Origin: a virus
IMG/VR virus record: IMGVR_UViG_3300037510_000655
DNA: 64,000 bases
Strand: one strand, 5' to 3'
A model generated the notes under the pieces. It saw only the letters and a program-made list of their open reading frames with translations, was not told the DNA's origin and searched no databases. The position numbers and the translations under genes are program-made. This document shows, piece by piece, positions 2,592 to 64,000 of the stretch (the first letter of the stretch is position 1; every line of letters starts with the position of its first letter).

Positions 2592-5500
2592 ATGCACACC
2601 GATCCCGTGTCGCAGTCGCAGATGATCGAGATCCGCAAGAGGGATGGCAGCAAGCAGATGTTCACGAGGGACAAGATCGCGAACGCGGTGGCGGCGGCGT
2701 GGAAGTCGGTTGGGGGGTTCGACGAGGACAAGACCAAGATCATTGCCATGTCGGTCGCCAGCGACGCATTCGGCGCAGCTGAGGCGGGCGTGATTGACAT
2801 CGAGGAGGTGCAGAACCTCGTCGAGATCGCGCTCATGCGCAACAAGCTCTACGATGTGGCCAAGGCGTACGTGATCTACCGGCAAAGTCGCGCTGTGGCT
2901 CGTGGCGCGCGCAAGCACCCGGATCCGCGGGCCGTGGCCGACTACATCCACGCGGCGAAGTACGCGCGCTACCTGCCGGACAAGAAGCGCCGCGAGGTGT
3001 ACGAGGAGACTGTCGCGCGCACCGAGCAGATGCACATCCGCAGGTTCGGCCACCTGCCCAGCCTCGCCGGTGGCGACAGTTTCGCGCACGATATCCGTCG
3101 TGCATTCGATCTGGTGCGCGAGGAGCGCGTGTTGCCGTCGATGCGCTCGATGCAGTTTGGCGGAGCGGCCATCGAGGCCGTGGAGAACCGCATCTACAAC
3201 TGCTCGGCCACGCACGTCAATCGGCTCGAGGCGTTCTCACAGGCGTTCTACCTGCTCCTGTGCGGCTGCGGCGTCGGCTACTCGGTGCAGTTTCGGCACG
3301 TTGACCAGCTGCCCGAGTTCGGTTTCGTTGACCCCAAGCGCGTCGTGCACCACGTCGTCGGTGACTCCATCGAGGGGTGGGCAGATGCGGCGCTCGCCCT
3401 GCTGCGCTCGTTCGTCGACGGGACGCACATCGAGTTCGCCTACCACCTCGTGCGGTCGGAGGGCTCACCGCTCAAGACGTCGGGGGGCAAGGCGCCCGGC
3501 CACCTCGCGCTGAAGACGGCGCTGGAGAGCGTGCGCACCATCCTGCTGCAGGCTCAGGGCAGGAGATTGCGTCCGATCGAGTGCCACGAGATTATGTGCT
3601 TGCTCGCGGACGCTGTACTGTCGGGGGGTATCCGCCGCAGCTCACTCATCTCGCTCTTCTCGCTCGAGGACAGCGAGATGATGTACTGCAAGACGGGCAA
3701 TTGGCTCGATAAGAAGCCGTGGCTCAGCAACGCGAACAACTCGTGCGTCTTGAAGCGCAGCGAGGTCAGGCTCGAGCAGTTCATGCGCATCTTCAAGATG
3801 ACGAAGAGGTTCGGCGAGCCGGGCTTCATCTTCGTCAACGACGAGGAGGAGGTGACCAATCCTTGTCAGCCTAGGTGGGCGACTGTGCTCACTCCCGAAG
3901 GTATCAAGACGATCGGGGAGATTGAGATCGGCTCTACGATCTGGTCGGGCAAGCAGTGGACGAAGGTCACCAACAAGTGGTCGACCGGAGTCAAGCCGGT
4001 CTACGCATTCCGCACGCGCGCCGGCACGTTCTACGGAACCGAGAATCATCGAGTTGTATCAGAGGGGGAAAAAATCGAAGTCGGTCAGGCCGAGTCGATC
4101 GATACTGCTCAGGGGCCTGTCGGGGCGCATGAGGATCTCGACCCCCGCGTGATCATGGACGGGATCGTCTTCGGTGACGGGAGTGTCCACGAGGCGTCGA
4201 ATAATTTGGTGCACTTGTATATCGGCGCCAAAGACGGCGACTATCTCGACAGCGAAATCAGTCACCTGCTCAAGATGCAACGACCCAGGCTCAGTGAACA
4301 CGCCTGGGAGATTCGCACCTCGCTCACAGCGGCGGAATTACCGAAGACCTATTTGCGATCGGTGCCGCATCGTTTTCGATTCGGTTCGTCTGCGCACGTG
4401 CGTGCTTTCTTGCGCGGCCTATACACGGCGAACGGGTCGATCGTTTCGACGCGAGTCACATTGAAAGCAGCCAGTATTCAGGTGATTCGGCAGGTTCAGG
4501 AAATGCTCTCGTCTCTCGGCATCTCTTCGTATTACACCACCAACGCGGCTCACACCGTCCAGTTTGACAATGGTGAGTACGAGTGCCGCGAAAGCTACGA
4601 CCTCAACATCACAGGAGGCAGACGCGAATTTCAGCGACAGATCGGATTCATTCAGAAGGATAAGCAGCGTCGATTGAGTGAGATCTGCGAGATTCCTGCG
4701 CGAGAGAGTCGGGCCAAGAAGACGTTCGAGATCATCGAGCAGACTTTCATTAGCGAGGAGGAAGTGTTCGATTTGACCGTCGAAGCAGACGAGCACACCT
4801 ACTGGACGGGCGGCCTGCTCGTGTCCAACTGTGCTGAGATTCGAATGAACTGCAGGCTGCAGATCACCCACGAGGTGCTGCGCTTGCTCAAGGAGCGTAC
4901 CAAGCGCGGCAAGCCGATGCCCGACGTCAAGCTCGGGGAGGTCTATACCGGCTTCTCTTTCTGCAACCTGTGCGAGATCAACGCGTCGAAGATCTCGAGC
5001 TTCTCTGACTTCGTCGAGGCGGCACACGCGGCCGCGCTCATCGGTACCCTGCAGGCGTCGTACACCAACATGCCCTACCTTGGCTGGGTGTCCGAGGTCA
5101 TTGCCGAGCGCGAGGCGCTGCTGGGCGTCGGCATGACGGGGATGATGGACTCGCCCGACTACGCGCTCAACCCCGAGCACCAGCGGGAGATCGCCGGGCG
5201 CATCGTCGAGTGGAATGCGGAATATGCAGAGCTGATCGGCATCCGTCCGGCGGCTCGCACGACAACGGTGAAACCGGGGGGCACTACGTCTCTCAAGCTC
5301 GGAGTGGTGCCGTCGGGCATTCATCCGCAGCACGCGCGACGCTTTCTTCGCCTCGTGACGGCGAACGAGCTGGAGACGGTGTTCCAGAACTTCAAGTCGG
5401 TCAACCCGCACATGTGCGTGCGCAAGCCCGACGGCGACTGGGTCATCGAGTTCCCGGTGCAGGCGAGGGACGGCGCCAAGGTCAAGCGCGACTTCACCGC

Positions 5501-5885
5501 GGTGCAATTCTTGGAGGTGGTGAAGTCGACGCAGCAGAATTGGGTGGAGCCGGGCACAGCGCGCCCCGAGTCGAGCCCAGGCTACGTGCACAACGTGTCG
5601 AACACGGTGCAGGTGGAGCCGCATGAGTGGGGCGAGGTCGCCGAGTACCTGTGGCAGAACAAGGAGCACTTCTCGGGGGTCAGTTTCATCGAGAACAACA
5701 ACAAGATCTACCCGTTCATGCCGTTCCAGGAGGTCATCACGGAAGCTGACGAGGCTCACTTCAACCAGTTGGTTGCAAACTATAAGCCGGTTGATTATCT
5801 CTCTTTCGTGGAAGAGGATGACACCACCAGTTTCGTGCAGGAGCCAGCATGTGCTGGCGGGGCCTGCGAGATTCCTACCAGGTAA
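2592..5885 (+). CDS. nrdJ: Class II (B12-dependent) ribonucleotide reductase with N-terminal ATP-cone, interrupted by an intein
   Basis: ATP-cone IRKRDGSKQMFTRDKI; LPSMRSM, YNC, GCGVGYSV, GGIRRSS, NP|CAEI split by the intein, TTVKPGGTTS, C-terminal CAGGACEI. Confidence 0.9.
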   Translation: MHTDPVSQSQMIEIRKRDGSKQMFTRDKIANAVAAAWKSVGGFDEDKTKIIAMSVASDAFGAAEAGVIDIEEVQNLVEIALMRNKLYDVAKAYVIYRQSRAVARGARKHPDPRAVADYIHAAKYARYLPDKKRREVYEETVARTEQMHIRRFGHLPSLAGGDSFAHDIRRAFDLVREERVLPSMRSMQFGGAAIEAVENRIYNCSATHVNRLEAFSQAFYLLLCGCGVGYSVQFRHVDQLPEFGFVDPKRVVHHVVGDSIEGWADAALALLRSFVDGTHIEFAYHLVRSEGSPLKTSGGKAPGHLALKTALESVRTILLQAQGRRLRPIECHEIMCLLADAVLSGGIRRSSLISLFSLEDSEMMYCKTGNWLDKKPWLSNANNSCVLKRSEVRLEQFMRIFKMTKRFGEPGFIFVNDEEEVTNPCQPRWATVLTPEGIKTIGEIEIGSTIWSGKQWTKVTNKWSTGVKPVYAFRTRAGTFYGTENHRVVSEGEKIEVGQAESIDTAQGPVGAHEDLDPRVIMDGIVFGDGSVHEASNNLVHLYIGAKDGDYLDSEISHLLKMQRPRLSEHAWEIRTSLTAAELPKTYLRSVPHRFRFGSSAHVRAFLRGLYTANGSIVSTRVTLKAASIQVIRQVQEMLSSLGISSYYTTNAAHTVQFDNGEYECRESYDLNITGGRREFQRQIGFIQKDKQRRLSEICEIPARESRAKKTFEIIEQTFISEEEVFDLTVEADEHTYWTGGLLVSNCAEIRMNCRLQITHEVLRLLKERTKRGKPMPDVKLGEVYTGFSFCNLCEINASKISSFSDFVEAAHAAALIGTLQASYTNMPYLGWVSEVIAEREALLGVGMTGMMDSPDYALNPEHQREIAGRIVEWNAEYAELIGIRPAARTTTVKPGGTTSLKLGVVPSGIHPQHARRFLRLVTANELETVFQNFKSVNPHMCVRKPDGDWVIEFPVQARDGAKVKRDFTAVQFLEVVKSTQQNWVEPGTARPESSPGYVHNVSNTVQVEPHEWGEVAEYLWQNKEHFSGVSFIENNNKIYPFMPFQEVITEADEAHFNQLVANYKPVDYLSFVEEDDTTSFVQEPACAGGACEIPTR
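3864..4829 (+). mobile_element. Intein with LAGLIDADG homing endonuclease (~322 aa) inserted at the RNR active-site NP|C
   Basis: Starts with Cys (CQPRWATVLTPEG), ends VSN followed by extein Cys; LAGLIDADG-like motifs DGIVFGDGS and FLRGLYTANGS; DNA visibly less GC-rich than the flanks. Confidence 0.9.
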
Positions 5886-7703: not shown

Positions 7704-8399
7704 ATGGCCATGGTCAAGTACCCGCCGCTGACTGCGAAGCAACAGAAGCTCGTGGAAGATCATACGGGGCTCGTCTTTCAGGTTGCGCTTCCACTCGTGA
7801 AGCGTGCACCCCTGGACGATCTTATTGCAGAGGGGCGCCTCGGGCTGTGCTTGGCGGCGGGCAAGTTCGACGAGTCACGCGGCCTCATGTTCTCGACCTA
7901 CGCGGTGTATTGGGTGCGAGCGCGCATCTACGACTACATCATGAAGAATCAGAGTCAGGTGATCTTCGGTACCCGTCGTGAAGATCGACGCGTCTATTTT
8001 CAGCTCGGCCGCGCGCGTAGGTTAATCGGCGACGATCTAGATGCTGTCGCAGCGTACATGGGCATCGATCGACAAACGTTGGACGAGGCGCTTCCCCGAG
8101 TTGAGAGAACGGACGTCGTTCTCGACGTGGGAAAATTTGTGCTGAAGGACGAGCGACCAGGGCCCTTGAAGCAGCTACTTGTGAACGAGGCGTCGAAGAT
8201 TCGACGGAAGAGGATTCTCAAAGCACTGCGACGGCTGGATCCGCGAGAGCGCATCGTCACCGAGCAGCGGCTGCTGAAGGCGCCGGCGAAGCCTCTGCGT
8301 GTGCTGGGCGAGGAGTTTGGTGTGAGCCGGGAGCGGGTGAGGCAGATCGAGCTGAAGGCCAAGGAGAAGCTGCGGGTGTTGCTGGCGGACGTGGCGTGA
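7704..8399 (+). CDS. RNA polymerase sigma-70 family factor (RpoH/SigB-like)
   Basis: Region 2: DDLIAEGRLGL..KFDESRGLMFSTYAVYWVR; region 4: LRVLGEEFGVSRERVRQIE. Confidence 0.85.
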   Translation: MAMVKYPPLTAKQQKLVEDHTGLVFQVALPLVKRAPLDDLIAEGRLGLCLAAGKFDESRGLMFSTYAVYWVRARIYDYIMKNQSQVIFGTRREDRRVYFQLGRARRLIGDDLDAVAAYMGIDRQTLDEALPRVERTDVVLDVGKFVLKDERPGPLKQLLVNEASKIRRKRILKALRRLDPRERIVTEQRLLKAPAKPLRVLGEEFGVSRERVRQIELKAKEKLRVLLADVA

Positions 8400-9445: not shown

Positions 9446-10075
9446 GTGAAGGACATGTTGGTTCGTTTTGAAGTGGATGGAATCTCGGTCACCGGTGAGT
9501 TGCTGACGTCCCCCAACGCCATTGGCGTGTGTCAGGTGGGACGTCTCGGCGTGAAGCTCCAGAGGCATCGAAGCCGCCTCTCGCCGGAGGATGATGAAGC
9601 GCGCGCCCGATTGGCGGCGGGTGATCGGTTCGTCACTCGCGACGGGGAGAACGCCATCGAGCGCGCGGCACAGGGTGAACGCAAAGAGAATTTGTTCGAC
9701 GGCTGGACAACCAACGACGTCGACAAGCTTCGCGAGTACGTCATTTCTCGATTGAACGAAGTGCAATCGGGTCGGCGTATTGGCCGTAGGGCTCGCGAGT
9801 ACAAGCGTCTTCACGACGCTGTGGTGCTGATCAACGCCTGGATCAAACAGTCGCATGTTCGCGCCAGCACGGCCGCTGCCGGGCTCACTGAGGAGCAGAT
9901 GCGCGATCCGGTTGCTCTTCTGGTGAGCGCAGGGAGCATGCTGCGCAGATTGTCTACGCGCATCTACGAGTTGAGCGGCGAGAACAAGGGAGATGATGTG
10001 TCAGCGCTATGCTGCGCCATTCAGAACTACATCGTTCAGCACGCTCCGCCGATCGATCTGAAAGCTGTGAAGTGA
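9446..10075 (+). CDS. Hypothetical protein
   Basis: Long ORF in a co-oriented operon. Confidence 0.55.
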   Translation: MKDMLVRFEVDGISVTGELLTSPNAIGVCQVGRLGVKLQRHRSRLSPEDDEARARLAAGDRFVTRDGENAIERAAQGERKENLFDGWTTNDVDKLREYVISRLNEVQSGRRIGRRAREYKRLHDAVVLINAWIKQSHVRASTAAAGLTEEQMRDPVALLVSAGSMLRRLSTRIYELSGENKGDDVSALCCAIQNYIVQHAPPIDLKAVK

Positions 10076-10149: not shown

Positions 10150-10419
10150 ATGAACAAGGATTATCGCTTCGTTGCCGAATTCACGAATCTGAGGGCGAGA
10201 AATCGCTCGCTCGGCGCTGCGCTGACTCGTCAGAAGCAACTGACTCGTACGCAGAACACCACGCTGGACGTGCTGGATCGAGCGGTGGTCGCCGGCGAGT
10301 TGGCGCGCCAGGAAGCAGTGCAAGTAGCGAACGCGGCTGTCGACACGACGAAGAAACTCGCCGAAGCACTCGATTCGGTGGCTGAAAATCTGCGCATTTT
10401 GGCGGACCGCGTCCGGTGA
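10150..10419 (+). CDS. Small coiled-coil protein
   Basis: Heptad-like pattern; stop overlaps the recombinase start. Confidence 0.5.
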   Translation: MNKDYRFVAEFTNLRARNRSLGAALTRQKQLTRTQNTTLDVLDRAVVAGELARQEAVQVANAAVDTTKKLAEALDSVAENLRILADRVR

Positions 10420-11288
10420 CCGACTTCGAGCGCGCCGCTCGCAGGCACATCGCCTCTCGCGGCTCCATAGGCACGCGTAAGCTCTATACCGCCGACCTGG
10501 AGTCGTGGCTGGACCTGTGCCAGTGCAACGAGTGGGACCCCGATCACCCGCAGCTCGACGCCGCGGCCGCGTTCCGGGATGAGCTGGCGAAGACCAAGAG
10601 CCCGGCTACGGTGCGACGGTCGCTGTCGGCGCTGTGCTCGATGTACGACAGCTACGGCGGCGTGAACCCGTTCAAGTCGAAGCAGCTGACGCGACCCAAG
10701 CAGGACGAGGTCTCACCCACCGAGGTGTTCACGCCCGAGCAGTCGGCGGCGATCTTCGCCGAGATCGAGAAGGAGATCGCGGTGAACGAGCGGCTTGGCC
10801 TGCGCGACTGGGCGATCGTGAAGACCATCTACGCCACAGGCATGCGCGTGTCCACGGCCTGCGGCATGCGCCGCGACTGCATCCGCGAGCGCGATGACAA
10901 ATTCTTCTTGATCACGCCCGTGAAGATGAAGGGCCGCGTGGAGGTCGCGCTGCCCGACGAGGCAATAGGAGCCATCCACGCGTGGCTGGAGATCGCGCCG
11001 GCGTCTCCGTGGGTGTTCCCCCGCGATGGCCACCCGGCCGAGCCGCTGACCACCAAGGCGGCGGCGGCCCGCGTGGCGACCTACGGCGCGCGCTGCGGAA
11101 TCAAGAACGCCAGCCCGCACCGCTTCCGCGCCGCCTACATCACCGAGGCGCTCGACGCGGGCATCCCGCTGCACGAGATCCAGGCGTCGGTGCACCACTC
11201 GAGCGTGTCGAGCACGCTGCGCTACGACCGAGGGAAGCGTGGCGGGAACGTGGCGGAGACGCTGGCCAAGCACAGGAGCGGAAAATGA
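10416..11288 (+). CDS. Tyrosine recombinase (XerC/D-like integrase)
   Basis: RDWAIV..TGMRVS (R), K-x-KG, PHRFR (HxxR), HHSS..TLRY (H, Y) catalytic set. Confidence 0.9.
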   Translation: MTDFERAARRHIASRGSIGTRKLYTADLESWLDLCQCNEWDPDHPQLDAAAAFRDELAKTKSPATVRRSLSALCSMYDSYGGVNPFKSKQLTRPKQDEVSPTEVFTPEQSAAIFAEIEKEIAVNERLGLRDWAIVKTIYATGMRVSTACGMRRDCIRERDDKFFLITPVKMKGRVEVALPDEAIGAIHAWLEIAPASPWVFPRDGHPAEPLTTKAAAARVATYGARCGIKNASPHRFRAAYITEALDAGIPLHEIQASVHHSSVSSTLRYDRGKRGGNVAETLAKHRSGK

Positions 11289-54403: not shown

Positions 54404-54889
54404 ATGGCTCGTCGCGGAAGCAAGAAGGGTCACAAGAAGGGGCACAAGAAGGGCTACAGCAAGAAGCGCCGTGCCGCCGCCGCCCGCAAGGCGTGGCGCA
54501 AGCGCAAGGCGAAGTACGGCAAGGCCGGTCGCAAGCGCGGTCGTCGCGGTGGCAAGAAGAAGGGCACCAAGAAGGGTGGGCGCCGCGGCAGCAAGAAGAA
54601 GGGCGGCAAGAAGAGCAGTCATCGCCGAGGTGGGCACCACAAGTCGCACGCTCACAAGGCGCGCAAGGGCCGCCGAGGCGCTCGTCGCCGCAGTGCGCGG
54701 CGTGAGATGATGGGTGGCTTCCGCGTCTCGCGCGGCTACGCCAAGCAACTCGCGAGGAAGCGCCGGGGCTTCGCCGCCCGCGCCGCGCGCGACGCCGCTC
54801 TCTCCGAGCACCGCAGCGCGTACCGCAACGAGCTGCTCGCGCGTCTCGCCGCCAGAAAAGAAGCCGCCGACGCCGCGAGGTTCTCGTAA
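54404..54889 (+). CDS. Protamine/histone-H1-like K/R-rich DNA-condensing protein
   Basis: Strong RBS; roughly half of the residues are K/R; repeats KKGHKKGHKKG and KKGG. Confidence 0.7.
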   Translation: MARRGSKKGHKKGHKKGYSKKRRAAAARKAWRKRKAKYGKAGRKRGRRGGKKKGTKKGGRRGSKKKGGKKSSHRRGGHHKSHAHKARKGRRGARRRSARREMMGGFRVSRGYAKQLARKRRGFAARAARDAALSEHRSAYRNELLARLAARKEAADAARFS

Positions 54890-55110
54890 TGGCTCGCCGG
54901 GGTAAGCGCGGCAACGCCCGCAATCTCGTCCGCATGCCGATGGCGAAGTGCAAGAAGTGCCGCCGCATGATCTTCGGCGGCCCCAAGGGCATGGCCACGC
55001 ACAAGCGCAATTCCTGCGGCAAAGGCAAGAAAGTGCGTAGAAATAAGAAGCGCCGACTTGCTGCCTTAGCTCAACTCAAAGCGCGCCGCTACGGAGCTGT
55101 TCGCCGTTAG
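54889..55110 (+). CDS. Basic protein with a C2HC Zn finger
   Basis: CKKC..HKRNSC; R/K-rich; TAATG overlap. Confidence 0.6.
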   Translation: MARRGKRGNARNLVRMPMAKCKKCRRMIFGGPKGMATHKRNSCGKGKKVRRNKKRRLAALAQLKARRYGAVRR

Positions 55111-56453: not shown

Positions 56454-56690
56454 GTGGGACTCAAGAACAAAACGACTCGCGTCAACGTACATTTCCCCGA
56501 CAAGTTGATCGCAGCCATCGACGCACACGCGGCGCGCATGACCGCAACGGATCCGGCCGGGCGCACGTATACCCGCGCCGACGCCATGCGAGCGCTGTTA
56601 GTGGCCGGACTCGTGGCGGAGCGCGCAGGGGCCGACCCTGGCCCCGAGGCGTACGAGGGTGCGCCCGCACGCCCCGGGCGCGTGACGTAG
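56454..56690 (+). CDS. CopG/RHH DNA-binding protein
   Basis: TRVNVHFPDKLIAAID..TRADAMRALL. Confidence 0.65.
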   Translation: MGLKNKTTRVNVHFPDKLIAAIDAHAARMTATDPAGRTYTRADAMRALLVAGLVAERAGADPGPEAYEGAPARPGRVT

Positions 56691-56757
56691 CGCGTACCCC
56701 CGTACGCGCGCGTAGGTGGGGCCCCTCACGCGCGAGGCGTACGCGCGTACGCGTAGG
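56691..56757. repeat. Nested TACGCG palindromes
   Basis: CGCGTAC-cccc-GTACGCG; TACGCGCGCGTA; 16-bp GCGTACGCGCGTACGC at 56737-56752. Confidence 0.75.
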
Positions 56758-56812
56758 CCAGGGGAGTGGGGCGTTTTGGCACTCCCGTCGAGGCAAGAAC
56801 GCCACACAGGAC

Positions 56813-56928
56813 CTAACCCCTTGAAATCATTAAGGTTCTCGGCTGTCAGGGCCGATCGGCCGTGAGGCGGTTTGCCACACGGGCTGAAGGTATCCGTTTG
56901 TCCCACACCAATGATTTCAATAGGTTAG
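56813..56928. repeat. 19-bp inverted repeat (17/19 match); each arm is a near-consensus IHF site
   Basis: CTAACCCCTTGAAATCATT (56813-56831) and AATGATTTCAATAGGTTAG (56910-56928); cores TTTCAA-N4-TTA versus WATCAANNNNTTR. Confidence 0.7.
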
Positions 56929-57128
56929 CCCGGTGCAGACTTGGCACCGACCATGCACTAGTCCCCAATCACGAACGGCAACGCGAAAGCGAGCAGGGGC
57001 GTCGGGCCCCGGGGACAGGGACACTAGCAGGGGCATCGGGCCCCGGGCGATGCGTAAGCGGGTGTGAGCCGCGACGCAGGTGCAGATCGGGAGCGGCTAC
57101 CGTAGGGCCGTGTACCGGCGCGCTTTCT

Positions 57129-57156
57129 TTGACAACTGAATAGCCGATCACGTAAT
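57129..57156 (+). promoter_or_regulatory. Sigma70-type promoter facing the small-gene array
   Basis: TTGACA-16 nt-CGTAAT in a non-coding region. Confidence 0.55.
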
Positions 57157-57687
57157 CCAGGGCCAAGCCAGGCCCTAAACCCGAGAATCGAAAACTCGTG
57201 TTTCATGCGGTCCGAGGGACATAACGTGCGCTGATTTGCCTACGGGTAATCTGAGCGCTTTCGAAGCGGCAGCGCCGCTAAACGTTGATGCTAACTTGAG
57301 TGGATCGCGCTCCTGATGACGTCCTAGCCAGGGCCATGCGCCCGACGCGGAGCGAGCGAGTCAGAAATTCTCGTCACAACGTAAAATACCAAAGCCCCAT
57401 CTCGGGGCACGCCAATAGGCAACAGATTGCGAGCCGCAACATCCGGGCGCGCAATCGCTGACTGAAGGCAACGCGCTAGCACTGCTACCACCTGCGAATG
57501 CGTTGCCCCGTCACTAAAACCGGAAACCGCATCTAGTTCCCGCTTTCAGTGACGGAGGCTCTTCAGTGACTGACAACGATATCCCACCTGACGAATTTGA
57601 CGACGAGCCTACTACCCGCGAGATTCCGCGCGAAACGATGGCAGCGCTCGTTTTCGGTGTCGGGTACAATCACAACCGAGGCGACCA

Positions 57688-58074
57688 ATGAAAAAGCTGC
57701 TCGCAGGCTTCGGCCTTCTCCTCGCATCAGGGTGCGCCGACGGTTCACTCGGTGCAGCGCCCGACAGCTTCACCACTGATTCCACACACCCGACCGTCTA
57801 CGCCGTGACGATCGACTGCGGCGCCTTCCAGTGCCCCTACGGCAAGCTGGGGCGCTACGTGTTCCTGGAACGCAACGCAGCGAGGGCGGCGCAGCGGTTC
57901 AGCGACGCGGGCAAAGACTTCTACGCCGCGAATCCCGACATCCCGCTTACCAGCGTCTCCGTCGGCGACGCATGGGACGGCAAGGCAGCGCGCGCTGTCC
58001 ACATCGCGGTGAGCAACGGTCCGGGCAACGGCTACAGCAATGCGGCTTTCTTCCTCGACATGACTAGCCTCTAA
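57688..58074 (+). CDS. Lipoprotein
   Basis: MKKLLAGFGLLLASGC lipobox. Confidence 0.65.
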   Translation: MKKLLAGFGLLLASGCADGSLGAAPDSFTTDSTHPTVYAVTIDCGAFQCPYGKLGRYVFLERNAARAAQRFSDAGKDFYAANPDIPLTSVSVGDAWDGKAARAVHIAVSNGPGNGYSNAAFFLDMTSL

Positions 58075-58141
58075 TTCCTCGGCGAGGAAACTCGCCCCTC
58101 TACCTGGCGCGCTTGACGGCGCGCGAGGCGGAGGTATCGCT

Positions 58142-58654
58142 ATGCTCAGACTTCAAGCGCAACTCTCGACCTTCACCGAAGGCGTTGTGTTCAAGCGCGG
58201 CAACCGTCGCCACAAGGCGCGCCTCGGCGAGATCGAAGCGTCCGCAAAGACGGAGCGCGAGGCGCAAGATGCGCTCGCGTTGGCAGTGCAGACCGCCATC
58301 GAGAACATGGGGCGACCCCTGCTCATGTTCGATCTCGTCGAACCGGGCAAGATGTGGCACGCGCACCAAAACAGCAGCGGCTCGTGGTGGTACACGATCG
58401 TGCGCCGCGCCCCTGTCACGATCCTCAGCGGCGCGATGTGTGAGGGCGGCAGTTGCGGCTCGTGGAAGACGCGCGATGAGGCTATCGAGCACATGCGCGC
58501 GCACTGGTATCAGTGCAACATCGAGCCGATCGTGATGGGCATCGTGGCGCTGTGTACCGGATATCGGCAGTGGATATGCAAGAAATGCCGATACGTACAG
58601 CACGGGCACGAGCCGTACGTCTGCACTGCGCCCGGTTGCGGCGCACGTCGATAA
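58142..58654 (+). CDS. Hypothetical protein with a C-terminal rubredoxin-like Zn/Fe ribbon
   Basis: GGAGG RBS; WICKKCRY..CTAPGCG. Confidence 0.6.
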   Translation: MLRLQAQLSTFTEGVVFKRGNRRHKARLGEIEASAKTEREAQDALALAVQTAIENMGRPLLMFDLVEPGKMWHAHQNSSGSWWYTIVRRAPVTILSGAMCEGGSCGSWKTRDEAIEHMRAHWYQCNIEPIVMGIVALCTGYRQWICKKCRYVQHGHEPYVCTAPGCGARR

Positions 58655-58722
58655 CGAGATGGGCGAGCACCCGCGGCTCGCCCCTCCTCGTGAGCGCTTC
58701 GGCGCTGACGAGGAGGATTCCC

Positions 58723-59352
58723 ATGATCACAGCAGAAGCAATCGCTCGCGCCCTCGCGTCTGACGAGATGGCCACGGCCATCGAGACCGCGATCGAGCGC
58801 CAGCAAGTGGAATACATCTACGGTCTGACCGGTGGCGAATTGAACGATTCGCCGCTGCGGTACTGGTCCGAGGATGACTCCGAGGGATTCTGCCGCTACC
58901 ACTACGACGGTGTTCCCGAGTGGGCGACGGAAGACTTCAAAGACGCCAACTGCCGCAACGTCGACTACTTCACCACGATCAACATCGACAACCCCTACGG
59001 GTGGTTTGCACAGTCGATGCGCATGGCCGACGGCCGCGTCTACCACCTCGTCAAGACCTACGCGAGCGGCGGGGAGGCGGAGTGCCCGTGCAGCTCGTCC
59101 GGCTGTGACGAGAAAGTCGGCGAGGGCTGCACCAAAGGATACGTCGAGTGCCCGCTGTGTGAGGCTACCGAAGGCGAGGATCACGGCATGATCTACCTGG
59201 GCACGGGTAGCGAAGCCGTGTACAAGCACGTCGAATTCGAATGCGCGGAGTGCTCGGAAACGCGCGCCGACTGCGTCATCGGATACGTCGGCGAGACCTA
59301 TACGGATCTCTTCGGCATGTGCAGCTGCGACGACAGCAACCCGGAAGCATAA
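58723..59352 (+). CDS. Acidic Cys-rich hypothetical protein
   Basis: GAGGAGG RBS; several CxxC pairs. Confidence 0.6.
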   Translation: MITAEAIARALASDEMATAIETAIERQQVEYIYGLTGGELNDSPLRYWSEDDSEGFCRYHYDGVPEWATEDFKDANCRNVDYFTTINIDNPYGWFAQSMRMADGRVYHLVKTYASGGEAECPCSSSGCDEKVGEGCTKGYVECPLCEATEGEDHGMIYLGTGSEAVYKHVEFECAECSETRADCVIGYVGETYTDLFGMCSCDDSNPEA

Positions 59353-59377
59353 AACGAGAACACGCGAGGGTGCGCCC

Positions 59378-59461
59378 CTCGCCGACGGCCTATCGCGACC
59401 CTCCGCCAATTCTCCGAGCGATCGGGTGTGGAGCGGGTGTAAGTGACGGGCCGTCGGCGAG
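59378..59461 (+). ncRNA. Structured cis-RNA motif, copy 1
   Basis: 13-bp closing stem CTCGCCGACGGCC/GGCCGTCGGCGAG; inner CCGA-GCGA-TCGG GNRA hairpin; 3' arm overlaps the GAGGTG RBS. Confidence 0.65.
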
Positions 59462-59842
59462 GTGCACACGTGACACACAAAAATACCGAGGAGCCGAAGT
59501 GCCGTGCCTGCGGTAAGACGCTGGCGCAGTGTAATGATCGGCCCGAGTGCTCGGAAACGAACGATTACGAGCACGACATTCCTGGCTATCGAATGGTAAC
59601 CACGGTGACTCCGATCAAAAAGGAGCGCGCGTGAACCGGTTTCAGCGCGAGCTGGCGAACAAAATTCGCCGCGGTCAAGCCGTCGGCAATCTCTACGTGG
59701 TGACGCAGCGGCCGATCGGCAACTCCACGATCACCGCCTCGTTCGACACCGAGGAGGAGCGCGATGCATTCATCGAGTGCGCCGAGCGCAGCGACTTCGC
59801 GACCACGGGGCTGATCTTCCCGACGGTACAGGAGAGCTAGCC

Positions 59843-60013
59843 ATGGCGAACGAGGCGCGCAAGGCAACAAACAAGCTCCTGGATATGGTCGACGACGGCG
59901 TACTTGACGCGCGAAAGGTGCTCCTGTCCGCGCTCAACTACATGTCCGAGGCGGACGTCGCCGACATGGCCAGTTGCGAGGGTTTCATCGAGGACGAAGA
60001 GGAATCCGAATAG
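59843..60013 (+). CDS. Small phage-type hypothetical protein
   Basis: RKATNKLLDMVDDGVLD..LNYMSEADVADM, a pattern I recall from other phages. Confidence 0.6.
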   Translation: MANEARKATNKLLDMVDDGVLDARKVLLSALNYMSEADVADMASCEGFIEDEEESE

Positions 60014-60039
60014 GAGTAGCAGCGAGCGCGCGCCTCGCG

Positions 60040-60120
60040 CGCCGACGGCCTATCGCGACCCTCCGCCAAGCTCCGAGCAATCGGGTGTGACGCGGGTGTA
60101 AGTGATGGACCGTCGGCGAG
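60040..60120 (+). ncRNA. Structured cis-RNA motif, copy 2
   Basis: About 7 differences over ~81 nt from copy 1; loop GCAA is still GNRA; followed by GAGGTG RBS and ATG 60132. Confidence 0.65.
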
Positions 60121-60131
60121 TGAGGTGCAGC

Positions 60132-60644
60132 ATGAAAATCATCCGCCAGCGCGAGCGCATCGAATCCGTCTCCTACACGCGCCAGTTCGATTACGAGCAC
60201 GATCCCGGCGCCGGCTTCGGCTTCGACTGCGACGAGCACGGCAACGTCAACGTCGACAAACTCAACTCGTGTGCGCGCAAGAATTACGAGGACTGCTTGC
60301 GCGGCCACGTGGTGCTGCGCCGCTGTGCGCAGTATGTGATCGGCCGCGACGCCGAAGGTGAGACCGTCTACATGCTCATCCCCGGCAGCGGCTACCTGAC
60401 CAAGGTCAAGATGGTCGACCTGGGTGTGCAGACGCACCGTCACAGCTACATGCAGCCCGCCGTCGGGGTGTGCGCGTGCGGCGCGCACGTCGAGCTGGAC
60501 CGCTTCACGAACACGTGCGAGTGCGGCCGCGACTACAACAGCTCCGGCCAGCTACTCGCACCCCGCGAATTCTGGGGCGAGGAGACGGGCGAGTCGGTGA
60601 GCGATATTCTGATGGCGGACGTCGACGCGTTCGGCGGCGAGTAG
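60132..60644 (+). CDS. Hypothetical protein with a Zn ribbon
   Basis: CACG..CECGRDYN-x-SGQLL. Confidence 0.6.
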   Translation: MKIIRQRERIESVSYTRQFDYEHDPGAGFGFDCDEHGNVNVDKLNSCARKNYEDCLRGHVVLRRCAQYVIGRDAEGETVYMLIPGSGYLTKVKMVDLGVQTHRHSYMQPAVGVCACGAHVELDRFTNTCECGRDYNSSGQLLAPREFWGEETGESVSDILMADVDAFGGE

Positions 60645-61075
60645 CCGTGACCATCGTCAAACGCACCGCGCTCAAGAGCGAGATCGTCTACACCGTCGAG
60701 CGCGAGGGTATCCTCTGCACCGCAGTCGTGGACTTCTACACGCGCCGCGACGGCAGCAAGGCCCCGCGCCTAGGCGTCGTCACGAGCTGCGGGAAGCTGA
60801 TCCGCAGCACCAAAGCGCGCGAGGAGATCGCCGCGCTGGTGCTGCCGGACGCGGAAAGGAACATGCCATGACGCGGCTCTATCACGTGCTCGCCGTTAAC
60901 GATCGGACGCACACAAAAGTGTACATGACGGCCACGCCGATCGAACACAGCCCGGCGTGCGTCTTCCTGTCCAAAATGACGCCGTATCCGAAACACCCGC
61001 ACCTCCGCTACCAGCTCGAGGAGCTGGGCAGCCCTCACCCGTACGAAAACCGCGACGTGGCCTGGGAGATCGCCG

Positions 61076-61357
61076 ATGGCTGAGACCCCCGAACAAACCA
61101 AAGCCCGCCACAAGACCAAAGACGAGGAGTACGCGCGCAATGCGCGCCTCAGCAAATGGCCGATGTTCGAGTGCCGCGCCTGCGTCCGCTACGCCTGCAT
61201 CAAGTGCAGCTATTGGACGCCCGAGACGCTCACACCCGCGGTCAAGTGCCCGCAGTGCGCCTCTGCCCTGCAGCAGACGCTGGTGTGCTGCAAGCGAGTG
61301 GGGCACCACGTCGGCGACTGCTGCACCCACTGCGGCAATGACGAGCGGAAGCTGTGA
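61076..61357 (+). CDS. Cys-rich small protein
   Basis: CRAC, CIKC, CPQC, CTHC. Confidence 0.55.
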   Translation: MAETPEQTKARHKTKDEEYARNARLSKWPMFECRACVRYACIKCSYWTPETLTPAVKCPQCASALQQTLVCCKRVGHHVGDCCTHCGNDERKL

Positions 61358-61634
61358 GCACGACGGAGGGCACGACGATGACGAAATGTCGGCAAGAGCA
61401 AGACCCAAAGTACCGTTTTGTCGACGGCAAATGTGAAGCTTACAAGCCGCTCTGTCCAGACTCGGCACGCTACACGACGGTTCTCGGAGAGCGCCGCTGT
61501 CTTCGGCACGCAAAGATGGATCAACCTACTCAACGAGTAGTGAACGCGTTTATCTCGTTCATCCGCGGTGCGCTTGACTGCGATTAGTCCCTGCACAGCG
61601 CGCCCGGTGCGACGGACGCGCGATGGAGGGATCT

Positions 61635-62024
61635 ATGAGCCTCAAAGAGCGCCGCAAGCGCATCGACAAGCACATCTCGCAGCTGCGCATGATCTTCCCC
61701 GCGCTGCTGCGCCAGCCCGACCACATCATCGAGGGCCGGCTCTACCACCACGAGCGGCGCGCCCACCGCGCGGCCGAGCGGCTGTGCAATGACTCCAGCT
61801 ACGGGAACGAGAGATACGAGCGCGACGTCGAGCCGATCAAGGCCGAGCTGCGCCGCTTCCTCGGTCTCGACGAGACCAAGATCCGCGTGATCGTCAACGG
61901 CGACCCGCGCGGCTACGCACTCAAGATCGACGACGACGATATCCGCGCCCTGTACGAGAAGGGTGTGAACTTCGATCACCGCGACTGGGGCGGCTACGGG
62001 ATCATCTGGCCCGACTTCGACTAG
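61635..62024 (+). CDS. Phage-type hypothetical protein
   Basis: GGAGG RBS; NGDPRGYALKI..DWGGYGII-x-P. Confidence 0.6.
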   Translation: MSLKERRKRIDKHISQLRMIFPALLRQPDHIIEGRLYHHERRAHRAAERLCNDSSYGNERYERDVEPIKAELRRFLGLDETKIRVIVNGDPRGYALKIDDDDIRALYEKGVNFDHRDWGGYGIIWPDFD

Positions 62025-62669
62025 GAGCCCGCCATGCGCGAGCAGTGCGCCCCGGCCGAGCTGTTCCCCGACACGCCCACGCGCCCGCAGGATCTGACGT
62101 GGGTGTTGTTCGAGGCCGACCTGATGCCGCTCGTTGAGGACATCGCCTGCAAACTGGAGAGCGAGACCCCGCGCATGCTGAGGTACCAGTGCGCGCTGTG
62201 GGTCCTGTAGAGGAGACGATCATGAAATTCAAGCTGCTCACTTTCCAAGACGAGGACGTCCTCGGCGGCGCCGTTGCCCTCGGGAACGCCTACATCAGCG
62301 CGTACGGGATGCTCGTCCGCGGCAAACCCCCGGCCAAGCTGGCCGTCGGCGAGTCGTGCGTTAAGCGCTACGCATTGTCAGGGCAGATGCCGACCGAGTA
62401 CAAGATCGTCCGAGTCGAGTAGATTTCTCGCGGGAGTCGCCTCCCGCCCGGGCGCGCGCTCACTAGAGCGCGCACGCGTGCGAGGTGCGAACCATGCCGA
62501 TCAAAATTGGTTACGACGGGCCAAACAAGTGCCCGATCTGCGACGAGCCGATGCTCTCCTGGTTTCATCTCGAAACCCACGAGTACGAGCTGAAGCAGCG
62601 CGCGAAGAACCCGACCGACCGCGTGATCCTCGAATTGAAGAACTACGGCTGTGTAGTGAGGAGCGAACC

Positions 62670-62928
62670 ATGAAAACGCTTGCTGACGTCCGACGCTTGA
62701 TGGTGCCGGGCACCGAAGTCTACGTGACCAACCACATCCGCCCGTAAGCCAGCGGCCCTCGCGTAGTCGAGAAGAACCAGACCAAAGACATCGCCTGGAA
62801 ATTGCCGGACGGCAAGGTCACCTGGCTCAAGTGGCCGAAGGCGAGCGAGATCGAGATCGTCGCTCTCGACAAGGTGACCTTCCTCGTCGAGGGCAAGCCG
62901 TTCGTGACGATCAGATTTCCCACGCTGA
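62670..62928 (+). pseudogene. Small gene interrupted by an in-frame TAA at 62745-62747 (end coordinate approximate)
   Basis: MKTLADVRRLMVPGTEVYVTNHIRP*ASGPRVVEKNQTKDIAWKLPDGKVTWLKWPKA reads as one protein across the stop; the natural stop is unclear. Confidence 0.5.
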
Positions 62929-63028
62929 CGCCTCCGTGCGCCGCGACCATGGGGCGCCTCTGCGCCGGGCACGCGCGCGCGCGCGCGGGGCTGCGGCGAA
63001 CGAGCCCTGCAACACTATGGAGTAGCCC

Positions 63029-63310
63029 ATGCCCCGCATCTACCACTACGCGACCGACCTCAAGGACTTCTGCGCCGCTCGCGAGCGCGGCGAGCTGTGC
63101 GAGATCGACCACGCCATGTACATGTACTACCTGGAGGTGCTGCCGCCGGTCATGTGGCAGCGCCACGTTGTCCTGTCCGACGGCACGGCGCGCTACGCCG
63201 ACTTCGGATTCGCCGAGGGTATGGAGCCCATCATCGCCTTCTGGCAGACGCGCGAGCCGTTCGTGCGCTACTTCGCGCAGCGGACCAAGTTCATGAATAA
63301 GGGAGGCTAG
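63029..63310 (+). CDS. Phage-type hypothetical protein
   Basis: GGAG RBS; EID..MY-x-YYLEVLPP. Confidence 0.6.
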   Translation: MPRIYHYATDLKDFCAARERGELCEIDHAMYMYYLEVLPPVMWQRHVVLSDGTARYADFGFAEGMEPIIAFWQTREPFVRYFAQRTKFMNKGG

Positions 63311-63395
63311 ACGACCATGAAAAACGCCGGCTAATCCCCGGCACCCCGCAGCGTGCGCTCGCAGATCGGCGCTGCGGACTAAAGGAGGCAGCCGG

Positions 63396-63743
63396 ATGCA
63401 CCCCGACATCACCGAATTCATGCCCGACGCCAACGGCTCACGGCGTCGACAGATCAAGATCGACGGCATCACCGTGCACATCGAGCCGCACGAGGACGAC
63501 ACCGCCGCCAAGCGCCTGGCACTCCACCTCATCGGCGCCGACAAGCAGCGCATCTTCAGCCCCGGCTACGTTCGCATGCACGGCAAGCTGGTGTGGCTGC
63601 TGGGCTCCCGCGAGAAGGGTTGGTCCGCGTTCGGCTACCCCTTCGCCGGCTGGGATCCCCTCTTCCGCCGCTTCGATGTCATCGTCACGGAAGTCGGCTC
63701 CGACGAGCACGGCCCGTGGTGGAAAGTCGAAAACAGAACCTAA
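63396..63743 (+). CDS. Hypothetical protein
   Basis: AAGGAGG RBS. Confidence 0.6.
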   Translation: MHPDITEFMPDANGSRRRQIKIDGITVHIEPHEDDTAAKRLALHLIGADKQRIFSPGYVRMHGKLVWLLGSREKGWSAFGYPFAGWDPLFRRFDVIVTEVGSDEHGPWWKVENRT

Positions 63744-63754
63744 AGGAATAGCCC

Positions 63755-64000
63755 ATGTTCGCCATCGAGATCACCGAGAAAGAAATCAAGAGCCTGCTCT
63801 GCACCGCCTTCGACGGCGGGATCTTCTACTGGTGCCACAAGTTCGACTACCAGTTTCCCGAGGGCATCAGCGAGGCGGACTTCCGCGAGGGCGGCAAGTT
63901 CGGTGCCGACCCTGACGAGAAATACTTCGACGCCCGCGAGCGCGCGCCCCTCATGCACGGCTGCTCGCTCATCCTGCACGACCTCGTCGAGGGCAAGAAA
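63755..64000 (+). CDS. Hypothetical protein, runs off the window end
   Basis: AAGGA RBS; MFAIEITEKEIKSLLCTAFDGGIFYW; no stop before base 64000. Confidence 0.55.
   Translation, partial: MFAIEITEKEIKSLLCTAFDGGIFYWCHKFDYQFPEGISEADFREGGKFGADPDEKYFDARERAPLMHGCSLILHDLVEGKK

What the first reader, a model, noticed from the sequence alone, without database searches (positions are those of the whole stretch)
59378..60131. Duplicated ~80-nt structured RNA motif that sequesters the ribosome-binding site
Seen: two copies (59378-59461, 60040-60120) about 91% identical. Both have a GC closing stem, a conserved internal segment (TATCGCGACCC..GGGTGTAAGTGA, able to pair around an asymmetric G/GUAA loop) and a CCGA-GNRA-TCGG hairpin whose loop changes GCGA to GCAA but stays GNRA. 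The 3' arm runs into the GAGGTG RBS of the next gene in both copies. It lacks the cores of the hammerhead, twister, pistol and c-di-GMP riboswitch families as I remember them. Inference: an undescribed cis-regulatory RNA (riboswitch, protein-binding or processing element).
Basis: partly seen in the sequence, partly recalled or inferred. Interest (0 to 1): 0.7.

Follow-up and report, generated by a model that had tools for sequence, protein, structure and literature searches.

The report
Two-state hairpins locking phage early genes
The duplicated RNA fold is real but is not a new riboswitch: it belongs to a family of long hairpins in an uncultured virus group that hide the ribosome-binding site of early genes and carry a second, competing small hairpin able to free it, most likely after a cut by the host enzyme RNase III (not shown experimentally).

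Summary
The two copies are real (91% identical, no Rfam match). The riboswitch-like core is not what is conserved. In 15 homologous elements from 9 contigs of this virus group, the 15-bp outer stem covaries (12 of 15 pairs) while the interior is replaced by unrelated sequence of 4 to about 65 nt; the one other contig type with this interior has a non-GNRA loop. The element is thus a two-state lock on the next gene's ribosome-binding site, one of about eight hairpins in the early gene array. Best model: RNase III cuts in a register that ends exactly at H1 and just before the SD, releasing the downstream mRNA (0.45). Rivals: MS2-like folding delay without a cut (0.2); DNA-level site (0.12). Against RNA-only readings: no G.U over A.C bias, unlike T7 controls. 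attC, Frpo and nested sigma-70 promoter tests failed.

The parts
59364..59472 (+). Copy 1, whole element from the upstream arm U to the GTG start of the next gene
59364..59382 (+). Copy 1, alternative hairpin H1 (59364-59370 with 59376-59382); takes up the anti-SD bases and forms first in prefix folding
59380..59394 (+). Copy 1, 5' arm of the conserved 15-bp upper stem
59395..59444 (+). Copy 1, variable interior (type A) with the CCGA-GCGA-TCGG hairpin
59445..59464 (+). Copy 1, 3' arm (59445-59459) running into the SD GAGGTG (59459-59464); model RNase III cuts after 59382 and 59458
60026..60134 (+). Copy 2, whole element to the ATG of the 170-aa gene
60026..60042 (+). Copy 2, alternative hairpin H1 (60026-60032 with 60036-60042)
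60040..60054 (+). Copy 2, 5' arm of the upper stem
60055..60103 (+). Copy 2, variable interior (type A) with the CCGA-GCAA-TCGG hairpin
60104..60127 (+). Copy 2, 3' arm (60104-60118), G.A mismatch base 60119, SD GAGGTG (60122-60127); model cuts after 60042 and 60117
58723..59352 (+). Gene upstream of copy 1 (209 aa, no family); stop codon 11 nt before U
59470..60013 (+). Three overlapping or abutting small genes between the copies (59470-59634, 59631-59840, 59843-60013)
60132..60644 (+). 170-aa Cys-rich phage gene behind copy 2; 283 homologues, used to fetch related loci
57508..57565 (+). Hairpin before the first gene of the array, 3' arm next to the RBS; same arm sequence before the first gene in L206
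   Evidence: read by eye
58075..58141 (+). Sister twin hairpin of different sequence, SD paired
   Evidence: z -5.4
58655..58722 (+). Sister twin hairpin, SD paired
   Evidence: z -5.4
61588..61634 (+). Sister hairpin, SD paired
   Evidence: z -4.3
62423..62493 (+). Sister twin hairpin, also present in L202
   Evidence: z -2.6
63311..63395 (+). Weaker sister hairpin
   Evidence: z -2.1

Best explanation
A cis-acting, two-state RNA element at the head of each 1-4 gene unit of the virus's early transcript. Its parts are U - anti-SD - 15-bp stem arm - free interior - stem arm - SD. In the closed state the long stem zips through the SD to near the start codon and blocks ribosomes. In the open state U pairs with the base of the 5' arm (H1) and the SD is free. 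The most likely trigger is a double cut by host RNase III. The register that best fits the E. coli enzyme's rules cuts the 5' strand exactly at the end of H1 and the 3' strand 0-4 nt before the SD. H1 would then cap the upstream mRNA and let go of a downstream mRNA with a free SD. Shown by sequence: the repeat, stem covariation, interior turnover, H1 conservation, anti-SD complementarity. Predicted by folding only: the two states and their energies. Inferred: that the array is early, that RNA is the acting molecule, that RNase III cuts, and where.
For: Stem: 12 of 15 pairs change on both sides, 94.9% of cells paired, 0 of 500 shuffles reach it; a model built on 13 members found an unseen member, L377, with a different but paired stem. 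Interior unrelated, 4 to about 65 nt, as expected if a structure-reading enzyme needs only the stem; loop sequence and position do not set the RNase III site (PMC1540722). Opening the RBS costs a median 15.6 kcal/mol in 6 early gaps against 6.4 in 14 other gaps (p 0.008). H1: 14 of 15 members have a perfect or near-perfect 6-bp hairpin at a fixed register, with changed pairs at four positions; summed score 175 against a shuffled maximum of 138 (the exception is cut by a contig end). Register: only with pb2 at the A-U pair (12 of 15) does the stringent db2 position fall on the U.G pair of both window copies (U.G 4, U-A 6 of 15); after such a cut the halves bind by only about 1-6 kcal/mol in 13 of the 14 full-length members (rules from PMC1540722). 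RNase III release of an occluded RBS is known for adhE and lambda cIII, and T7 RNAs are RNase III targets (PMC5371410). L206 has the same layout with an ArdA gene.
Against: No strand bias: G.T 34 against A.C 35 (strict count 13:10) and the sense strand is the more stable in 16 of 26 hairpins, whereas six T7 RNase III hairpins give 8:2 and 6 of 6. Four of six box positions differ from the E. coli optimum (pb1 C-G, pb3 G-C, pb4 C-G in 9 of 15, which lowers cleavage 7-fold in E. coli, db1 A-U), and the register was picked after the fact from seven. A cut 6-9 bp higher would leave the halves bound by 14-22 kcal/mol in most members. In T7 the SD lies outside the processing hairpin. Host and its RNase III are unknown; no RNA data could be had. 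Members are related, so counts overstate independence, and template-switch repair of palindromes can also give covariation.
Confidence: 0.45

Rival explanations
1. Folding-delay timer without cleavage, as in the MS2 maturation-gene leader: H1 forms first, holds the anti-SD while the SD emerges, allows a short burst of translation on nascent mRNA, then the long stem closes. A ribosome stopping 6-12 nt before U could tip the balance by melting H1.
For: Prefix folding gives H1 first in both copies; the computed barrier from open to closed is 3-12 kcal/mol with H1 and mostly about 0 without. A purine.purine mismatch sits where the invading strand meets an H1 pair in 12 of 15 members, which would slow strand exchange. 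U starts 6-12 nt after the stop codon in 13 of 13 measured (L209 has a longer gap). Precedent: PMC4615214.
Against: Several barriers are only 3-4 kcal/mol (including copy 2), too low for a delay of seconds; the invading strand is directly stacked on H1's arm; does not explain the conserved A-U and U-containing pairs of the upper stem; same lack of strand bias.
Confidence: 0.2
2. DNA-level folded sites (attC-like or cruciform) at which early gene blocks are shuffled, possibly by the virus's Xer-like tyrosine recombinase (10416-11288).
For: Conserved stem with a variable tip resembles attC anatomy; no strand bias; gene order differs between relatives; identical interiors at different places and different interiors at the same place show exchange between copies; the L001 loop looks like the inverted copy-2 loop with one change; a tyrosine recombinase is encoded.
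Against: No RYYYAAC or GTTRRRY in 11 elements; only 5 single-base bulges in 27 hairpins, none conserved; the recombinase scores 34 bits against a 265 cut-off for integron integrases; L001 gained a gene behind the hairpin with no extra hairpin and L377 lacks a hairpin after the same upstream gene; H1 lies only on the 5' side and the 5' arm mirrors each gene's own RBS spacer.
Confidence: 0.12
3. Mostly neutral: palindromic spacers kept paired by template switching and spread by gene conversion, with little regulatory effect.
For: No strand bias; loop inversion; stem sequence differs widely among sister hairpins in the same genome.
Against: Confined to early-array gaps; strong predicted RBS occlusion would be costly if unregulated; H1 is a third, separately covarying arm.
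Confidence: 0.1
4. T4-type RBS-masking hairpin with a nested promoter: only transcripts started inside the hairpin lack the anti-SD and are translated.
For: Removing the 5' arm lowers the opening cost to about 1-10 kcal/mol; the virus encodes its own sigma factor (7704-8399); precedent in T4 e, soc, 49, I-TevI (PMC3014915).
Against: No sigma-70-like promoter in 56500-64000; best match inside 11 elements 6-8 of 12; stem sequence can change wholesale (L203, L377); H1 unexplained.
Confidence: 0.07
5. One reading: the interior is a riboswitch aptamer, ribozyme or protein-binding fold that drives the switch.
For: Interior A is kept at 91% in two paralogous places and in L001; a second interior (type B) is kept in L202, L211 and L377 while the stem around it changes, so some interiors may be under selection.
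Against: Orthologous sites carry unrelated interiors or 4-6 nt loops; GNRA lost in L001; no compensatory change inside A; G/GUAA loop not favoured; no Rfam similarity even below threshold except miRNA-type hairpins; no other A-type match in three collections.
Confidence: 0.06

Closest known systems
RNase III processing signals of the phage T7 early mRNA (R0.3, R0.5, R1, R1.1, R1.3)
   Same: Repeated long hairpins between genes of an early polycistron, conserved stem, helix long enough for the enzyme, partial match to proximal and distal boxes.
   Different: Here the SD lies inside the stem, a competing 5' hairpin H1 is conserved, interiors are large and interchangeable, stems are G+C-rich, and there is no sense-strand bias (T7 6 of 6). 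No cut shown.
RNase III-relieved RBS occlusion (E. coli adhE, lambda cIII)
   Same: RBS buried in structure until RNase III acts (PMC5371410).
   Different: Single genes there; here a repeated family with a built-in alternative hairpin.
5' leader of the MS2 (Levivirus) maturation gene
   Same: SD paired with an upstream complement across a variable structured domain; a short, earlier-forming, mutually exclusive hairpin holds the anti-SD (PMC4615214).
   Different: Single copy in an RNA phage, cloverleaf fold, no sequence similarity; here many intercistronic copies in a DNA virus and a continuous stem.
T4 RBS-sequestering hairpins with nested late promoter (e, soc, 49, I-TevI)
   Same: SD and start region held in a helix on read-through RNA (PMC3014915).
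   Different: No nested promoter found; much longer stems; H1.
Integron attC sites
   Same: Imperfect intergenic palindrome with conserved stem and variable terminal structure, between a stop codon and the next RBS.
   Different: No R boxes, no conserved extrahelical bases, no IntI, not one site per gene (PMC5027507).

Membership tests
Known riboswitch or ribozyme families (Rfam 15) | Match to a family covariance model | tested here: not met
New riboswitch or ribozyme | Core nucleotides and loops conserved across homologues | tested here: not met
   interior replaced at orthologous sites, GNRA lost in L001
New riboswitch or ribozyme | Covariation inside the core | tested here: inconclusive
   only three versions of interior A, no compensatory change
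New riboswitch or ribozyme | Ligand binding or self-cleavage | not testable with these tools
   needs in-line probing or a cleavage assay
T7-type RNase III processing signal | Hairpins between genes of an early polycistronic region | tested here: met
   'early' is inferred from layout and ArdA in L206
T7-type RNase III processing signal | At least 11 bp of helix above the cut, about 22 bp in all | tested here: met
   12 bp above the model cut; 15-bp stem plus 3-12 pairs below (PMC1540722, PMC3867540)
T7-type RNase III processing signal | Proximal and distal box determinants of the E. coli enzyme | tested here: inconclusive
   pb2 A-U 12/15, db2 U.G 4/15 (both window copies); pb1, pb3, db1 and mostly pb4 non-optimal; host unknown
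T7-type RNase III processing signal | Fold favoured on the mRNA strand (G.U over A.C) | tested here: not met
   34:35 and 16/26 against T7 8:2 and 6/6
T7-type RNase III processing signal | Cleavage by RNase III | not testable with these tools
MS2-type delayed-folding leader | SD paired with an upstream complement in the final fold | tested here: met
   predicted
MS2-type delayed-folding leader | Conserved, earlier-forming, mutually exclusive hairpin over the anti-SD | tested here: met
MS2-type delayed-folding leader | Delay long enough for ribosome binding | tested here: inconclusive
   barriers 3-12 kcal/mol by a heuristic path
T4-type hairpin with nested promoter | Promoter between anti-SD and SD | tested here: not met
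   no sigma-70-like site; a phage-sigma promoter of unknown consensus cannot be excluded
Integron attC | RYYYAAC and GTTRRRY boxes | tested here: not met
Integron attC | Conserved extrahelical bases | tested here: not met
Integron attC | Variable terminal structure | tested here: met
Integron attC | Integron integrase; one site gained or lost with each cassette | tested here: not met
   only 64 kb of the genome is seen
Frpo/ssi single-strand promoter | -35 and -10 hexamers in the folded stem | tested here: not met
   PMC11541004

The most novel reading that the evidence does not exclude
A repeated, modular 'cut-and-release' translation switch: every early gene block of this virus group is silent until RNase III cuts, a conserved helper hairpin then frees the SD and caps the upstream message, and the excised, interchangeable interiors (types A, B and others) are released as small RNAs with functions of their own.
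Probability: 0.12. Interest if true: 0.75.

Novelty: new variant of a known kind. Interest (0 to 1): 0.45.

Why it matters
If right, it joins two known tricks (T7-type processing hairpins and an MS2-type alternative hairpin over the anti-SD) in one repeated unit, and would make early gene expression of an uncultured virus group depend on a host ribonuclease or on folding time. That is directly testable with reporters in E. coli and suggests a compact synthetic switch. It also removes a false riboswitch lead. The missing strand bias is unexplained and leaves a DNA-level role open.

Tried and rejected
Rfam at gathering and E-value thresholds: nothing but miRNA-like hairpin noise. Pattern scans for interior A: none in IMG/VR, one hit in JGI metagenomes (L001), 66 GTDB and about 80 viral loose hits all chance. 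Stem patterns in IMG/VR: 83 loci, none above 26 bits against 45-83 for members. Distant phages carrying the 170-aa gene lack the hairpin, so the family is clade-limited. RadA and capsid queries found no IMG/VR relatives; cultured phages gave no match; no host could be assigned; no genome or reads held. Simple translational coupling: modelling a ribosome over stop+12 or +18 nt did not open the RBS in most elements and often raised the cost. HDV-like reading of interiors A and B considered by eye and dropped: no P1 partner, no catalytic C. Resemblance of interior B to a type I-F CRISPR repeat recalled from memory, not tested. A first, looser H1 test was significant overall (mean z -2.0) but not for copy-2-type members. 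Literature searches found no description of this element.

Full report
Observation. They are 91.5% identical, there is no third copy in the window, and the likeness is confined to 59364-59461 and 60022-60120. Both lie in non-coding gaps of 117-118 nt between co-oriented genes and fold better than shuffles (z about -4). Rfam has no match. The CCGA/TCGG hairpin is well predicted; the G/GUAA internal loop is not the favoured fold.

Setting. The window is part of a G+C-rich bacterial virus genome with a ribonucleotide reductase, a sigma factor, a Xer-like recombinase and a RadA-like ATPase. The motif lies in an array of small genes of no known family that starts after a long gap near 56700-57560. 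A relative, L206, has the same layout and an ArdA gene in the array, so I read the array as early genes; this is inference. About six more gaps in the array hold long hairpins of other sequence whose 3' arm covers the RBS. Opening the ribosome footprint costs a median 15.6 kcal/mol in these gaps and 6.4 in comparable gaps elsewhere (6 against 14 genes, p 0.008).

Homologues. DNA patterns for the interior found one relative only, L001, later seen again in three identical contigs. Its tetraloop is ATGC, not GNRA, and resembles the inverted copy-2 loop. Fetching DNA by the neighbouring proteins gave 15 elements from 9 contigs. A 15-bp stem is kept; 12 of its 15 pairs change on both sides and no shuffle reaches this (related sequences inflate such counts). 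A covariance model found an unseen member, L377, with a quite different but paired stem. The interior is not kept: 4-6 nt loops in three members and at least five unrelated interiors in the rest. One of them, type B, recurs in three contigs with different stems, which I cannot explain. Distant phages with the same downstream gene lack the hairpin.

The missed part. Upstream of the stem, 6-12 nt after the stop codon, lies a 6-7 nt arm U that pairs with the base of the 5' arm. This hairpin H1 is present at a fixed register in 14 of 15 members, with changed pairs at four positions, including both window copies; its summed score is 175 against a shuffled maximum of 138. H1 encloses or overlaps the anti-SD and excludes the SD helix. 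It forms first in prefix folding and raises the computed barrier to the closed state from about 0 to 3-12 kcal/mol. The closed state is more stable by 11-14 kcal/mol in the two window copies. A G.A or G.G mismatch sits just above the SD helix in 12 of 15 members.

Mechanism. E. coli RNase III needs an 11-bp helix, A-U or U-A at proximal box position 2 and prefers U.G at distal box position 2; loop sequence does not matter (PMC1540722). Of seven registers only one puts pb2 on a conserved A-U (12 of 15), and it puts db2 on the U.G of both window copies. It would cut after 59382 and 59458 in copy 1 and after 60042 and 60117 in copy 2: exactly at the end of H1 and just before the SD. The halves would then hold by only about 1-6 kcal/mol in most members and H1 would cap the upstream message. 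The fit is suggestive, not strong: four of six box positions are non-optimal, the register was chosen afterwards, and the host is unknown. Release of an occluded RBS by RNase III is known (adhE, lambda cIII; PMC5371410). The same anatomy also fits an MS2-type folding delay (PMC4615214); the two are not exclusive. I put an RNA-level RBS lock of either kind at about 0.65-0.7.

Evidence that does not fit. A strand-symmetric count of mismatches gives G.T 34 and A.C 35, and the sense strand is the more stable in 16 of 26 hairpins; T7 RNase III hairpins give 8:2 and 6 of 6 by the same method. So selection for a maximally stable mRNA fold is not seen, and a DNA-level role or template-switch upkeep stays open. 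The attC reading fails on R boxes, extrahelical bases, integrase type and cassette logic (PMC5027507). No sigma-70-type promoter lies in the elements, which speaks against Frpo and T4-type nested promoters (PMC11541004, PMC3014915).

Verdict. A real, undescribed, clade-limited family of RBS-locking hairpins with a conserved alternative hairpin; works most like T7-type RNase III signals combined with an MS2-type anti-SD trap, and is not shown to be a member of either. Not a riboswitch on present evidence. New variant of a known kind; interest 0.45.

Noticed in passing
window 57127-57137 and L206 2316-2326: An identical 11-nt box containing TTGACA lies in the long gap before the early array in both viruses, without a shared -10 hexamer; both gaps also hold ACGCGT-rich repeats (window about 56700-56755). 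Possible promoter or origin region.
   Followed up: partly
L202 795-835, L211 245-285, L377 32-72: A second interior (type B, about 38 nt) is better conserved than the stem around it in three contigs; no Rfam match; function unexplained.
   Followed up: partly
L001 530-630: The tetraloop region equals the reverse complement of the copy-2 loop but for one base, suggesting a micro-inversion; an extra 58-aa gene follows the hairpin and the 5' arm has changed to pair with the new sequence.
   Followed up: partly
window 10416-11288 (+): XerC/D-like tyrosine recombinase, not an integron integrase; its target site was not sought.
   Followed up: partly
window 7704-8399 (+): Virus-encoded sigma-70-family factor, best hits RpoH-like.
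   Followed up: no
window 2592-5885 (+): ATP-cone protein (ribonucleotide reductase-like) with an internal LAGLIDADG domain, probably an intein.
   Followed up: no
window 54404-55110 (+): Two adjacent, extremely Lys/Arg-rich small proteins, protamine- or histone-like, between the structural block and RadA.
   Followed up: no
L331 about 9920-9990: In an unrelated phage, a hammerhead-like core (CTGATGA ... GAAA with flanking stems) precedes the homologue of the 170-aa gene; below Rfam gathering score.
   Followed up: partly
L205 2678-7060: A related 117-kb contig carries a TnpB/Cas12f-like gene and a Cas4-Cas1 fusion just before its small-gene array.
   Followed up: no
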